Assembly (NCBI GenBank): GCA_964016885.1 | Contig: CAXHJY010000303.1 | Location: 1-64,000 of the forward strand | DNA length: 64,000 bases | Origin: Eledone cirrhosa | Lineage: Eukaryota | Direction: 5' to 3' | In this document: positions 5,938 to 14,156 of the stretch, in pieces | Numbering within the stretch: position 1 is the first letter of the stretch | Layout: each line of letters starts with the position of its first letter | Notes under the pieces: generated by a model | Told to the model about the DNA's origin: nothing | What the model saw: only the letters and a program-made list of their open reading frames with translations | The model's database searches: none | Position numbers and translations under genes: made by a program

Positions 5938-6096
5938 ATATTGTTATACTTTGGGAGGGTCATGTTGCCAATAAGAAACACACGCACCAGTTGCTTTCAC
6001 TTCAATTTAATTTAATATATATTTATAAATTTACAAATTTATAAATTTCTGGTTGGTTGGTTGGTTCCACAACCAGATAGTTGTTTATATATATAT

Positions 6097-6141
6097 AGTC
6101 ATAGTTCTTTCGTCACACACTCTGTGACCTCTTCAGTGACT
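6097..6141 (-). ncRNA. Minimal type I hammerhead ribozyme (mirror copy in the left palindrome arm)
   Basis: Exact reverse complement of 6253-6297. Confidence 0.78.
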
Positions 6142-6252
6142 GGGGATTTCTTTCTTCGTTTCTGTGCCTTTCCTTTCTTCTATCCTACGCCATTTTTGAA
6201 ATGGCGTAGGATAGAAGAAAGGAAAGGCACAGAAACGAAGAAAGAAATCCCC

Positions 6253-6297
6253 AGTCACTGAAGAGGTCACAGAGTGTGTGACGAAAGAACTATGACT
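6253..6297 (+). ncRNA. Minimal type I hammerhead ribozyme
   Basis: agtca CTGAAGA g gtcaca-gagtg-tgtgac GAA ag-aa-ct A tgact: 5-bp stem I, 6-bp stem II, 2-bp stem III, CUA triplet, one extra nt after the core. Confidence 0.78.
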
Positions 6298-6514
6298 ATA
6301 TATATATAAACAACTATCTGGTTGTGGAACCAACCAACCAACCAGAAATTTATAAATTTGTAAATTTATAAATATATATTAAATTAAATTGAAGTGAAAG
6401 CAACTGGTTGCGTGTGTTTCTTATTGGCAACATGACCCTCCCAAAGTATAACAATATCGGTTTCAACACACGATTTCAGATAAAGAATCTTGCTAAACAA
6501 ATTCAGAAACGAAA

Positions 6515-6977
6515 TATATATATATATATATACATATATATTTGTATATGGATATATATATATATATATATATATATATATATATATATATATTTGTATA
6601 TGTATATATATATATATATATATATATATATTTGTATATGTATATATATATATATATATATATATATATATATATATATATATATATATATATTTGTATA
6701 TGTATATATATATATATATATATATATATATATATATATATATATATATTTGTATATGTATATATATATATATATATATATATATATATATTTGTATATA
6801 TAGATATATACATATATATATATATATATATATATATATATATATATATATATATTTGTATATGTATATATATATATATATACATATATATATATATATA
6901 TATATATATATATATATATATATGTATATGTATGTATATATATATATATATATTCGTATATGTATATATATATATAT
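6515..6977. repeat. Compound TTTGTATATG(TA)n array
   Basis: Direct reading. Confidence 0.95.
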
Positions 6978-7024
6978 ATATAATATGTTGAGAAGGTAAC
7001 ACACCAGAGAGAGATATATAGTGC

Positions 7025-7391
7025 TGTAGCGGTTGTCTCCCTTGTTTTGATTGGGATCTAGACGGGAGGTGGAACCCTTTCTGCGACTTCCGGTCAGAGC
7101 CCTATAAAACTAACAACGTTAAGCTTCCTTTCTCTCTTTGCCTTTTCGGCACCAGGTCAAGAGTCTTCTCATTTGGCTCTGCCATTAATTTGGCCAACAG
7201 GCGCCTGGCCTTAGCCAGGCGCTTTCTGCCAGCCGCGTTTGCCTGGCAATCAAAACGGTAACTACTAACTTTGTTTCATTCTAACATCTATCTTTGACAT
7301 GTCAAGTATTCCATCTACCGTTAATTAAATATTATATACACAAACCATGTCTCGTTTTGTTACATTCATACAACTCAGTACTCTCGCTATA
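7025..7391 (+). repeat. 5' LTR
   Basis: 367 bp; TATA-like ctataaaa ~7103; GC hairpin gcgcctggc-ctta-gccaggcgc 7201-7222; attaaa ~7324. Confidence 0.93.
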
Positions 7392-7392
7392 T

Positions 7393-7424
7393 TGGTGACC
7401 CTGACGTGATACGAACACGCAGCC
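7393..7424 (+). promoter_or_regulatory. Primer-binding site complementary to the tRNA-Trp 3' end, extended to 32 nt
   Basis: tggtgaccctgacgtgatacgaacacgcagcc versus the reverse complement of metazoan tRNA-Trp (…GGCTGCGTGTTCGAATCACGTCGGGGTCACCA, from memory): 2 mismatches. Confidence 0.88.
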
Positions 7425-10768: not shown

Positions 10769-11119
10769 AATGTAAGTATGTATGTATACGTATATATATA
10801 CGTACATGCATATATGTATACAGACGTACAGTAGCATGTATATATATACATACAGGCACACATATATATGCACGTATCAGTTTACCGAACATTTATTAAT
10901 AAGCTTGAAACTAGTACATCGTTCCTGTGTCAGTGTTGAACAAAAAGGTGACGTGGTTTCCTAAACACTGTAAGGCGTAATTCAGGCTGTTTGTTTGTTT
11001 ACAAAAGATCAAACCGAGCATTATAATAAATGTTCGGTAAACTGATACGTGCATATATATATGTGTGCCTGTATGTATATATATACATTCTACTGTACGT
11101 ATACATACATACTTACATT
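10769..11119. mobile_element. Fold-back/MITE-like element with long inverted arms
   Basis: 10824-10897 pairs with ~11026-11100 (…gcacgtatcagtttaccgaacatttatt) and 10769-10792 pairs with 11096-11119. Confidence 0.7.
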
Positions 11120-11407
11120 TAAGTAAGTGCCGTACTAAGAGTGAGAAATGAAATTTCGTTTCATTCTATTCCATTTATATATATTTGTATATATATATAT
11201 ATATATATATATATGTTGATTTAAAACTGCACTATCCACAAGTGTTTTTAACCTTCATATCATGTCCTTCTATTTTATCTGATGAAAACACAAATGTTAT
11301 TGCATGATGATATTTGTTTTTGAAATGCGCATAATAAAATACATGGAACTCATTTAACCATCTTTTGATCTTATATATATATATATATATATATATATAT
11401 ATATATA

Positions 11408-11563
11408 TCATCATCATCATCGTTTAACGTCCATTTTCCACGCTAGCATGGGTTTGGACGGGAATTTTTCCACTTGAGGCAAGATTGGTTGACTTGCTCG
11501 TATAGGACTGTCTGGCGGGTTTTCTGGATGCCCTTCCTAACACCAACCACGTATACAGTGTGG
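11408..11563 (-). mobile_element. RTE LINE 3'-end fragment
   Basis: (cat)n gtttaacgtccattttccacgctagcatggg...ggatgcccttcctaacaccaacc, inside a (TA)n tract. Confidence 0.85.
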
Positions 11564-11871
11564 ATATATATATATATATATATATATATATATATATATA
11601 TATATATATATATATATATATATTTGCATATATTGACAGTTCAAAATTCCAAACTTGACTGTCACCACATAATATGAACCTGAAGATTGCGAAAGCATGA
11701 AAGTACTTGTTCAATTAACTCTTAACATTTAATATTCTACCATATTATTTCATTCTAATACCATTATAAATTTTAAAGGATTGTAAATAAAACGAGTAAA
11801 TCAGACAAAGTTGGAATTCCTTTTATTAATATAATCTTCTAAACACAATCATACACACCCGTGTATATTTA

Positions 11872-11986
11872 TCTCTCTCTCTCTCTCTCTCTCTCTCTCT
11901 CTCTCTCTCTCTCTCTCTCTCTCTCTCTCTCTCTCTCTCTCTCTCTATATATATATATATATATATATATATATATATATATATAT
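11872..11986. repeat. (CT)n(AT)n microsatellite
   Basis: Direct reading. Confidence 0.95.
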
Positions 11987-12041
11987 TTGGATTTTAGTCT
12001 TCAAATTTATTATTATTACTATATATATATATATATATATA

Positions 12042-12200
12042 ATGGCTCTCTCAGGAATTTGTCATCTCTGTATTAAAGAAATATTTCACATAATTACCAA
12101 TCCTAAGAATGCTATAAACAAAAAGAAAGAATTATTTCATTCTTGTTTGCATCGACAGTCCAAAACTTTTAAAAGTATCTATAATCTACAGAAAATATAT
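12042..12200 (+). pseudogene. C-terminal fragment of a Penelope-like GIY-YIG endonuclease
   Basis: GICHLCIKEIFHIITNPKNAINKKKELFHSCLHR fits the CxLCxxE..I.....LNKRxEL...CRH pattern I recall at the C-terminus of some PLE ORFs. Confidence 0.68.
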
Positions 12201-13815
12201 ATAGCCTCTATATCTTGCCCAGTTACATTTTATATGTCTTCGCTGCTTTTGTGATGTTTTTAATGATATTTTTGATGATTTGTTGAACTTTTTTCTAATA
12301 GTCTTTATAGGTCTTTTAAATGTATACATACAAATACTTAATATCATCAAATTTATACATAGGTATAAGTAATGGTATCAAAATATATACATAAAATTTT
12401 TATCTTAGAACATATCTAATATATGATGCTCTCAAATCATATATAAAATCATTTTTCCATATACTACAATTAGAATATAATTTGAAAGTAAATTTGAGAC
12501 TAAACGATACATATAACTATAACTTAACTCCGTAAACTAATAATAATTAGAGTTATCTTTTAATTGGAAACGAAACTTGTTTACATCTAATATCTACGTA
12601 ACATTTAAACTTTACATAAATTAAAATTTCATAAATTTATTTCTATCTTGATACAACTATAGAATATACAAAATAATATACATCTTCTATACTAAAATAG
12701 AATTACTTCCACATTCTTAAGCCATATATTGAAAATGTAAACATATCTTCGCCCAACATATCATAACTCTTCTTATACAAAGCTATCTATATCTAACCAA
12801 AATTATTTATCTATCAAATAAATAATATATATACTCACCAAAACTATTTATATACATACAACTAACCTCTTTTAATAAAATATACTTATAACTGCAATCT
12901 TCATAATATTAAAACACACCAGTAGAATAGACCCAATCGTATATATAAATAGAAGATACCTTTCACATTTTAAATTAATATTCTCTCACTTTAACACATT
13001 TATTTATAATTCACACATTATATTATAAATACTTCCAAAATATATAATTAAATAAATAAAAAAATAAAAATAAATATAATTATTTCATTTTCTCTACACC
13101 CTTACAAATACGTTCCGGACAATTATTTACGTACATTCCTATAAATATTCTGTTAGTAGCTTTAATATATTTTTTTCTTAAAACCTTTCCTTAAATTTTC
13201 TTCCACCCTAATAATTGTTTCTACTTTAGGCACAAGGCCAGCAATTACCCACCCTAATAATAACCCCTGTTTCCTTTTCTTATTAAAAAAAAATAAATCC
13301 TAGTAATTATTTAAATTTACCTAGCGTCTAAACATAACGATCTTTTTCAGTTTTAACGTTATCCTCATTAGCATATTCATCTTGTGATTTGAAGTTTTTC
13401 TTCACTATTCAAATAGAACTCACAATATTAAGTTCTTGTCTGAATATGTCACTATCTGTAAACCAACTTTTGTATTTTATCTGATGAGAGAATACCAAAA
13501 TTTTGGTACCCTTGACATATATATAATAAAATAAATATGGTTTTATTAAGATAACTTCCATTTATTAATATTATTGATATATATATATATATATATATAT
13601 ATATATATATATATATATATATATATATATATATATAATAAATACATATATAATAAATACAATATCGAGAAAGCTTTTTAGCGATACTCCGGCCAAATTC
13701 CAACTCACTCAACAAACATTAGGAAACAATTGATTATATTCTCAATTATGTGTTCGGGGTGCTAACTAAAAGTATTGCGTGGAAAATTGGCTGTATTATT
13801 TCAAATATATCTCTT

Positions 13816-13942
13816 CCCAGACGGACGTCTCGTTTCATTATAGGATTCCTACAATTTGGGTGAAATTATACCAATTTATGTAGGAGCTTGTATACCATCA
13901 ATAGATATATATTCAAGTGGGCTCCTATAATTCATCAGTGGG
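13816..13942 (-). ncRNA. Type I hammerhead ribozyme with a large branched stem II
   Basis: Minus strand: ccca CTGATGA attatagga-[77 nt, two hairpins]-tcctataat GAA acg-agacgtc-cgt C tggg. Confidence 0.83.
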
Positions 13943-14156
13943 TGCCCCAATAATACTAATATATATATACTATATAGAGATATATGCATGTGTAGCGGGG
14001 TGGTGAATGCCACCCCACCCTCGCTACCACTATTACCACTGCTATCATACTTTTGATACCATGTCTTATCCTGTTTGCATTACATCTCAAAACCTCTCCA
14101 CCATGCAGTTCTCCTGTTCCACACCACACTCTTTGTAATTCTGGAATATATATATA

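What the first reader, a model, noticed from the sequence alone, without database searches (positions are those of the whole stretch)
5938..13960. Nest of four unrelated hammerhead-ribozyme elements within 8 kb
Seen: four sequence-unrelated type I hammerheads (6253-6297 + with a mirror copy at 6097-6141 -, 9189-9268 -, 10660-10697 +, 13816-13942 -). Each has CUGANGA and GAA cores, three pairable stems and an NUH triplet. They are interleaved with (TA)n tracts, hairpins and a PLE-type endonuclease C-terminus (12042-12200). Known: minimal type I hammerheads mark Penelope-like element pseudo-LTRs and non-LTR retrozymes. Inference: this is an insertion hotspot for several ribozyme-bearing, largely non-coding retroelement families, possibly uncatalogued in cephalopods. 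Standard ORF or protein-based annotation would miss them.
Basis: partly seen in the sequence, partly recalled or inferred. Interest (0 to 1): 0.85.

Follow-up and report, generated by a model that had tools for sequence, protein, structure and literature searches.

The report
Octopus genome packed with hammerhead retroelements
The four predicted self-cutting RNA motifs are real parts of four separate high-copy repeats (two are ends of Penelope-like retrotransposons, two are non-coding tandem units likely moved by them) that pile up in TA microsatellites across this genome, and the copy ends of one family likely record the ribozyme cutting in vivo.

Summary
All five motifs sit at the stated coordinates, far above chance. 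Each belongs to a different multi-copy family. A is the 3' pseudo-LTR of a Neptune-like Penelope-like element (PLE); its mirror copy is a 5' inversion. C is the pseudo-LTR of a Hydra-clade PLE. B (541 nt) and D (704 nt) are ORF-less tandem units with PLE-type fixed 3' ends in (TA)n, i.e. non-LTR retrozyme-like. The class is known, and an octopus Hydra PLE is already listed. Not found in the papers searched: this density, and a pile-up of 5' ends at the predicted cleavage site in D (9 of 43) and its relative D' (5 of 18), a likely footprint of in vivo cleavage. Cleavage and expression are untested.

The parts
5941..6196 (-). Family A 5' inverted arm, holds the mirror hammerhead 6097-6141; stops at the tail-less end (~+170 from the cleavage site), then (TA)n
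   Evidence: 99% identical to the sense arm; A ends cluster at +170 and ~+230
6199..6513 (+). Family A sense copy: 5'-truncated 3' pseudo-LTR of a Neptune-like PLE with ~56-nt tail; hammerhead 6253-6297, H17 at 6292
   Evidence: RT-EN ORF ends 105-184 nt upstream of the matched stretch in 21 of 29 genomic copies; GIY-YIG and RVT_1 hits below Pfam cut-off; CX4CxxC linker and CCHH visible in the translation
6978..7024 (-). Family B 3' end (+178 site), separated from the rest of B by the LTR element
   Evidence: 100% match to the B unit
7025..9060 (+). Later LTR-element insertion inside B: ~367-nt LTRs 98% alike, PBS-like and purine-rich ends, GTGC target duplication; carries no hammerhead
   Evidence: no long ORF
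9061..9600 (-). Family B: 541-nt ORF-less tandem unit; hammerhead 9189-9268, H17 at 9196
   Evidence: tandem period 541; longest stop-free frame 87 codons on the antisense strand, no PLE protein match
9601..9677 (+).
9721..10747 (+). Family C: last ~0.85 kb of the 3' UTR / pseudo-LTR of a Hydra-clade PLE, interrupted by a SINE-like repeat at ~10007-10191; hammerhead 10660-10697, H17 at 10694
   Evidence: 4765-nt tandem unit with RT-EN ORF in L121 and ORF in L122; EN end 1851 and 2010 nt upstream of this hammerhead
10768..11175 (+). Family H (missed): 490-nt ORF-less tandem unit, here truncated inside its hammerhead (3' half 10897-10925) with a 5' inversion
11215..11372 (+). Family E (missed): short 3' end with hammerhead 11271-11341 and palindromic helix III; probably a Hydra-clade pseudo-LTR
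   Evidence: multi-copy; Hydra-type EN ends 564 nt upstream in 1 of 19 copies
11628..11870 (+). Family F (missed): hammerhead 11675-11713 with U.U at the base of stem II and palindromic helix III; autonomous partner not found
12042..13576 (+). Family G: one 5'-truncated Hydra-clade PLE = endonuclease C-terminus + 1.3-kb 3' UTR + hammerhead 13473-13533 with a broken core in this copy
   Evidence: 3 genomic copies match nearly the whole 1535 nt at 83-87%; upstream PLE ORF in 7 of 11 relatives; GAAA core in the related copies
13652..13962 (-). Family D: 5'-truncated copy of a 704-nt ORF-less tandem unit; hammerhead 13816-13942 with 95-nt branched stem II, H17 at 13820; 3' end at +183

Best explanation
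The 8 kb is a stack of eight independent hammerhead-bearing repeat copies separated by (TA)n: ends of protein-coding Penelope-like elements (A, C, G, probably E) and ORF-less tandem units (B, D, H) that are likely mobilised by PLE protein. Shown: the motifs, family membership, ORF linkage, fixed 3' ends in (TA)n, 5' truncation and inversion. Inferred mechanism: a tandem locus is transcribed; the PLE GIY-YIG endonuclease nicks TA-rich DNA; the RT starts at one or two fixed sites inside the RNA, 50-270 nt downstream of the ribozyme cut site (two sites give the tail), and copies back until it falls off, inverts or meets an RNA 5' end. Each insertion keeps TA on both sides, so new elements land beside old ones. 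The ribozymes are predicted to be weak, conditional cutters (helix III stable only as a dimer or with protein help), so most copies read through an uncut ribozyme; in D and D' about a fifth to a quarter of copies begin at the cut site, likely because the template had been cleaved there.
For: All families multi-copy: first-look candidates A 313, B 2706, C 1926, D 1817, E 173, F 305, G 3584 (not copy numbers; 40 scored each). ORF upstream in 21 of 29 A copies (one is the source of the query protein). C ORF shows Hydra diagnostics RW(R/H), DKT, CxCX5C, CxxC, CxH (against PMC8557442 section 11). B: 23 insertions (30 loci, 7 dropped as duplicates) end at +177-179 (10) or +261-266 (13); 13 of 23 have a 5' inversion; 21 of 23 are followed by TA. 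D: 23 of 26 end at +179-189, 22 of 26 in TA. These match the tail, inversion and AT targeting described for PLEs (PMC8557442; PMC11167929). 44 of 49 motifs in sampled DNA have (TA)5+ within 350 nt downstream against 1517 of 6000 random positions. 5' ends within -5..+12 of the cut site: D 9 of 43 (expected 1.1; best-window simulation P 0.0002), D' 5 of 18 (expected 0.3; P 0.004), best other window 4 and 2, all with different flanks. Relatives of D change helix I (C-G to U-A) and helix III (G-C to A-U) on both sides. 9 of 24 motif clusters have a perfectly palindromic helix III; helix III hairpins are +0.4 to +5.6 kcal/mol while self-duplexes reach -14.7 (D), -10.5 (E), -4.8 (F).
Against: No cleavage or RNA data. 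No autonomous partner sharing sequence with B, D or H was found, so PLE mobilisation rests on end signatures. D and D' show no 5' inversions (0 of 26, 0 of 28, 0 of 18) and one dominant 3' end, unlike A, B and C. Formal covariation is weak: B/B' alignment 1 of 12 pairs with a two-sided change, 32 of 500 shuffles reach the score, and B' has C.C at the base of stem II. Single-strand MFE folds do not give the full three-way junction and z-scores are only 0 to -2.5. A's helix III is not favourable even as a duplex (+1.4). No pile-up at the cut site in A (0 of 46) or B (2 of 15, p 0.09). Four of D's nine ends lie at a 6-nt AT run (+9), where microhomology could set the junction.
Confidence: 0.8

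Rival explanations
1. B, D and H spread through circular monomer RNAs (rolling-circle retrozyme model): the ribozyme cuts at both ends, a host ligase closes the circle, and RT running round it makes more-than-unit copies.
For: Tandem arrays and more-than-unit insertions (11 of 23 B insertions are at least one unit long); circular units fold better than shuffles (D z -6.1, B z -3.1, 40 shuffles each); model proposed for animal retrozymes (PMC7229834).
Against: Tandem read-through of a linear RNA explains the same copies. A circle has no 5' end, so it does not predict the D/D' pile-up at the cut site. 3' ends lie 180-270 nt from the cut site, not at it. It can coexist with the best explanation.
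Confidence: 0.3
2. The 5' pile-up in D/D' comes from RT stalling at RNA structure, TA microhomology or the edge of a few source copies, and the ribozymes are not cut in vivo.
For: PMC11167929 found cleavage dispensable for insertion in vitro and no RNA-seq ends at the site; three D ends lie at +347-353 below a strong hairpin; D has an AT run at +9; in D the structure upstream of +5 ranks 10th of 141 windows.
Against: Stronger hairpins collect 0-1 ends in D and 0 in D'; in D' the structure upstream of the peak is weaker than the median; longer AT runs elsewhere in both units collect 0-1 ends; the peak recurs in two families about 72% alike in their aligned parts.
Confidence: 0.25
3. The locus is a specific insertion hotspot or a functional ribozyme cluster of the host.
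For: 7 intact motifs in 8.1 kb, none in the following 39 kb of the window, and no sampled 10-kb stretch reached 7.
Against: 2 of 60 sampled stretches hold 6; counts track TA content (rho 0.53, p 1e-5); copies here are truncated, interrupted or mutated (G core, B helix III, H cut in half) and differ in age.
Confidence: 0.05
4. The motifs are chance matches in AT-rich repeats.
For: 3 of the 4 get no Rfam hammerhead match at E up to 10; modest folding z-scores.
Against: Shuffle controls; same core in 24 multi-member clusters with different stems; position in PLE pseudo-LTRs as published (PMC4209133).
Confidence: 0.02

Closest known systems
Minimal hammerheads in PLE pseudo-LTRs (Cervera and de la Pena 2014, PMC4209133; parts 1-2 of 4 read)
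   Same: Type I, short helix I, extra nucleotide between A9 and G10.1 (family A), weak or palindromic helix III, opposite-strand pairs 100-700 bp apart, mostly solo truncated copies.
   Different: No cephalopod in the parts read; counts given there are 2,000-9,000 per genome against about 10^5 extrapolated here with a different descriptor.
Hydra-clade PLEs including Hydra-1_Obim (Craig et al. 2021, PMC8557442; section 11, passages and supplement rows read)
   Same: C-terminal GIY-YIG, RWK-like, DKT, CxCX5C, CxxC/CxH motifs, hammerhead, (TA)n insertion (family C; G and E by EN similarity).
   Different: C's unit is 4.77 kb with a ~1.9-kb 3' UTR against generally under 3 kb; Hydra-1_Obim is listed with no pLTR. 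Its sequence was not compared with C.
Neptune-clade PLEs
   Same: Family A protein has RT, a CX4CxxC linker and a CCHH-type GIY-YIG domain.
   Different: Clade set by motifs only; Nematis is not excluded, no tree was built.
Metazoan non-LTR retrozymes (PMC7229834, passages read; bioRxiv 10.64898/2026.07.22.740005, parts 1-3 of 5 read)
   Same: ORF-less tandem units with one type I hammerhead each, GC under 45%, well folded, co-occurring with PLEs.
   Different: Units of 490-998 nt against 170-400 nt for invertebrates (51-972 nt in the vertebrate survey); mostly dispersed truncated copies with PLE-type fixed 3' ends, tails and inversions; D has a 95-nt branched stem II; circular RNA not shown.
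Poseidon element of Anolis (Frangieh et al. 2024, PMC11167929; parts 1-2 of 4 read)
   Same: Two internal RT start sites downstream of the hammerhead giving the tail; AT-rich targets.
   Different: There cleavage was dispensable in vitro and left no RNA-seq ends; here D/D' genomic 5' ends peak at the predicted cut site.

Membership tests
Type I hammerhead ribozyme | CUGANGA and GAAA core, NUH triplet, three helices with helix I open | tested here: met
   for A-F; G broken and H truncated in the window copies
Type I hammerhead ribozyme | Rfam hammerhead model at gathering score | tested here: not met
   C 31.7 of 34 bits; A, B, D no match
Type I hammerhead ribozyme | Compensatory changes in the helices | tested here: inconclusive
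   two-sided changes between D and D' and one in B/B', not above shuffles; copies within families too alike
Type I hammerhead ribozyme | Self-cleavage after H17 | not testable with these tools
   only the indirect 5'-end peak in D/D'
Penelope-like element (A, C, G) | ORF with RT and C-terminal GIY-YIG endonuclease linked to the repeat | tested here: met
   in relatives, often frameshifted; the window copies hold none (A, C) or only the last ~50 codons (G)
Penelope-like element (A, C, G) | Pseudo-LTR with hammerhead, partial tandems, 5' inversion, tail | tested here: met
Hydra clade (C) | RWK-like, DKT, CxCX5C linker, CxxC and CxH, (TA)n target | tested here: met
   translations read
Neptune clade (A) | CX2-5CxxC linker and CCHH endonuclease | tested here: met
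   these motifs are shared with Nematis
Neptune or Hydra clade | Placement in an RT phylogeny with named references | not tested
   no named reference sequences were at hand (one search hits almost all unnamed)
Non-LTR retrozyme (B, D, H) | ORF-less tandem repeat with a type I hammerhead in each unit, low GC | tested here: met
   periods 541, 704, 490; GC 39% (B) and 36% (D); longest stop-free frames 87, 67, 75 codons; no PLE protein match
Non-LTR retrozyme (B, D, H) | Unit of about 170-400 nt as in described invertebrate retrozymes | tested here: not met
   490-998 nt; inside or near the 51-972 nt range of the vertebrate survey
Non-LTR retrozyme (B, D, H) | Expressed as linear and circular monomer RNA | not testable with these tools
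   no RNA holder listed
LTR retrozyme | Type III hammerhead inside LTRs | tested here: not met
   the LTR element 7025-9060 has no motif and is a later insertion into B

The most novel reading that the evidence does not exclude
This octopus genome is the most hammerhead-dense animal genome described (about 60-85 motifs per Mb, 10^5 or more in all, from dozens of families), and its ORF-less families carry both PLE reverse-transcription start signatures and a 5'-end peak at the cut site, giving a genomic record that PLE-type hammerheads cleave in the germline and set the 5' end of the transposed RNA.
Probability: 0.45. Interest if true: 0.72.

Novelty: new member of a known kind. Interest (0 to 1): 0.5.

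Why it matters
What hammerheads do in the PLE cycle is an open question (stated in PMC8557442; cleavage was dispensable in vitro in PMC11167929). A family where copy ends can be counted at the cut site, beside families where they cannot, makes it testable from genome data alone and names constructs for the bench. The end signatures of B and D also give mechanistic support outside vertebrates for the proposal that animal retrozymes are PLE passengers. If the density holds, ribozyme motifs occur every 12-16 kb on average, so many octopus introns would contain them, and Rfam-based annotation sees almost none.

Tried and rejected
Rfam at gathering score: no hammerhead in the window or in 14 motif-rich stretches; the many miRNA hits at E-value threshold are hairpin artefacts of the inversions. 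The repeat finder was swamped by TA tracts. A weak motif at 36087-36170- (stems 3/3/2) was set aside; it fails the stricter score, though its sequence resembles a family seen. Sequencing runs: no RNA holder listed; three runs of unknown kind were contigs only, confirming the 9199 variant, the tandem junction and TA at both B ends, with nothing on expression. Search for autonomous partners of B and D through diverged relatives B' and D' found only more ORF-less families; PLE ORF fragments near some B and D copies are out of register and separate insertions. The first B/B' alignment used wrong coordinates and was discarded. The idea that 12042-12200 belongs to one of A-D was rejected. Earlier-findings look-ups returned nothing. 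Literature searches behind 'not found in print'; the supplement of PMC7229834 could not be read and that of PMC4209133 was not opened, and either may list cephalopod motifs.
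Full report
Observation. The window is the first 64 kb of a small contig in a 3.0-Gb genome; an Octopus protein is the best named relative of one element (64%), so I read the host as an octopus (inference). A descriptor scan returned all five motifs at the stated coordinates. Six motifs in 5938-13960 compare with 0.04 on average and at most 1 in 300 shuffles. Rfam supports only C, just under its cut-off. Four more hammerhead families lie in the same stretch: E, F, G (core broken here) and H (cut in half).

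Family A. Multi-copy at 88-93% among the 40 scored. In 21 of 29 fetched copies an RT plus GIY-YIG ORF ends just upstream; it has a CX4CxxC linker and a CCHH-type endonuclease, i.e. Neptune-like by the motifs in PMC8557442. The window copy is 6199-6513 with a 99% identical inverted arm at 5941-6196 that lacks the last ~56 nt: the PLE inversion-plus-tail layout. The extra nucleotide after A9 is the one described for PLE minimal hammerheads (PMC4209133). H17 is U in 23 and A in 21 of 44 clustered motifs.

Family C. 28 of the 40 scored copies besides the window are 100% identical over the 186-nt query or nearly all of it, so it is young. L121 holds a 4765-nt tandem unit with a frameshifted ORF, and L122 a similar ORF, with the Hydra-clade motifs. 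The window copy is the last ~0.85 kb, interrupted by a SINE-like repeat. The endonuclease remnant at 12042 is the start of a different Hydra-type copy, G, that runs to 13576 and ends with its own hammerhead.

Families B, D, H. These are tandem units of 541, 704 and 490 nt with no PLE protein match and no long frame; no fetched B or D copy (29 each) has a PLE ORF in register. Diverged relatives B' and D' (998 nt) are also ORF-less. The window's B copy is split by an LTR element with a GTGC target duplication. B insertions end at two sites 88 nt apart, +178 and +266 from the cut site (10 and 13 of 23), 13 of 23 have 5' inversions and 21 of 23 run into TA. D ends at about +183 (23 of 26) and never inverts (0 of 26; 0 of 28). 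Fixed internal 3' ends in AT-rich DNA with a tail are what PLE protein produces in vitro (PMC11167929), so I infer PLE mobilisation; the helper family was not found.

Is the fold real? Within families the copies are too alike to covary. Between D and its relatives helix I and helix III change on both sides while helix III stays self-complementary. B against B' gives one two-sided change in 12 pairs, not above shuffles. Across 470 motif hits in fetched loci, 24 clusters have two or more members with different stems and the same core, 9 with palindromic helix III. Helix III is unfavourable as a hairpin in all six window motifs tested and favourable as a self-duplex in five, and MFE folds do not give the whole junction. 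I read these as weak, dimer- or protein-dependent ribozymes (inference, in line with PMC4209133 and PMC11167929).

A footprint of cleavage. In D, 9 of 43 non-redundant plain 5' junctions (58 loci, 47 after removing duplicates, 4 with more element upstream dropped) lie within -5 to +12 of the cut site, against 1.1 expected; in D' 5 of 18 against 0.3. The window was chosen after seeing the data, so I also simulated the best window anywhere: P 0.0002 and 0.004. Flanks differ in all 14. Stronger hairpins and longer AT runs elsewhere collect 0-1 ends. Four D and all five D' cases span one whole uncut ribozyme, fitting partial cleavage of a tandem transcript. Against: loci were the best BLAST matches, not a random sample; four D ends sit at an AT run; A (0 of 46) and B (2 of 15) show no peak.

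Hotspot? Sixty 10-kb stretches taken on a fixed grid over 22 contigs (38 from the four largest) held 51 motifs against 0-3 per shuffled set; two stretches held 6; counts correlate with TA content. 44 of 49 have a TA tract within 350 nt downstream against 25% of random positions. Bootstrap extrapolation gives 1.6-3.7 x 10^5 motifs, or 1.1-2.9 x 10^5 counting only the 38 in multi-member clusters; mirror copies count twice. Published counts, made with other descriptors: axolotl 126,247, mussel ~5,000, coral over 6,000 (PMC7229834), Xenopus ~9,000, giant squid 235 by Rfam (PMC6962438). So the nest is a typical TA-rich pile in an unusually ribozyme-rich genome.

Comparison and novelty. Hammerheads in PLE pseudo-LTRs, non-LTR retrozymes and their proposed PLE origin (bioRxiv 10.64898/2026.07.22.740005, vertebrate-centred) are known, an octopus Hydra element is listed, and the O. 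vulgaris repeat paper has 0 occurrences of ribozyme or hammerhead in its main text. Eight searches found no description of cephalopod retrozymes, of this density or of a 5'-end peak at the cut site; subscription papers, Repbase and two supplements were not seen. Verdict: real features, new members of known kinds, with two leads (density and cleavage footprint) that lift the interest to 0.5.

Noticed in passing
window 7025-9060: Non-coding LTR element about 2 kb long, LTRs 98% alike and both ending TATA rather than CA, PBS-like sequence after the 5' LTR, 4-bp target duplication; inserted into family B.
   Followed up: partly
window 1276-3890 (-): LINE-type reverse transcriptase and endonuclease remnant (506-aa frame at 1361-2881) lying between two long TA tracts; looks CR1-like from recalled motifs.
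   Followed up: no
window 53337-64000: 29/58-bp satellite array of about 10.7 kb at 91% identity running off the window.
   Followed up: no
window 15200-15540, 27388-27723, 46771-47102, 51354-51686; also 10012-10197 and five or more similar copies: Two abundant SINE-like families; the first has a tRNA-like head (Rfam tRNA 31.9 bits). The second repeatedly inserts into PLE 3' UTRs.
   Followed up: no
G000 loci L128-L146 and others (family E): About 10 of 34 E copies share a 5' boundary near -120 from the cut site, and tandem pairs of 163-nt period occur, suggesting a mini non-autonomous form of E.
   Followed up: partly
L109 and L116 (family D): Two independent copies begin one base before the predicted cut (with C17), not after it; unexplained.
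   Followed up: no
L185, L193, L200, L186, L225: Further hammerhead families with very long or branched stem II and palindromic helix III among grid-sampled stretches.
   Followed up: partly
window 47383-48577: 33/96-nt ACC/ACT-rich tandem array of about 1.2 kb.
   Followed up: no
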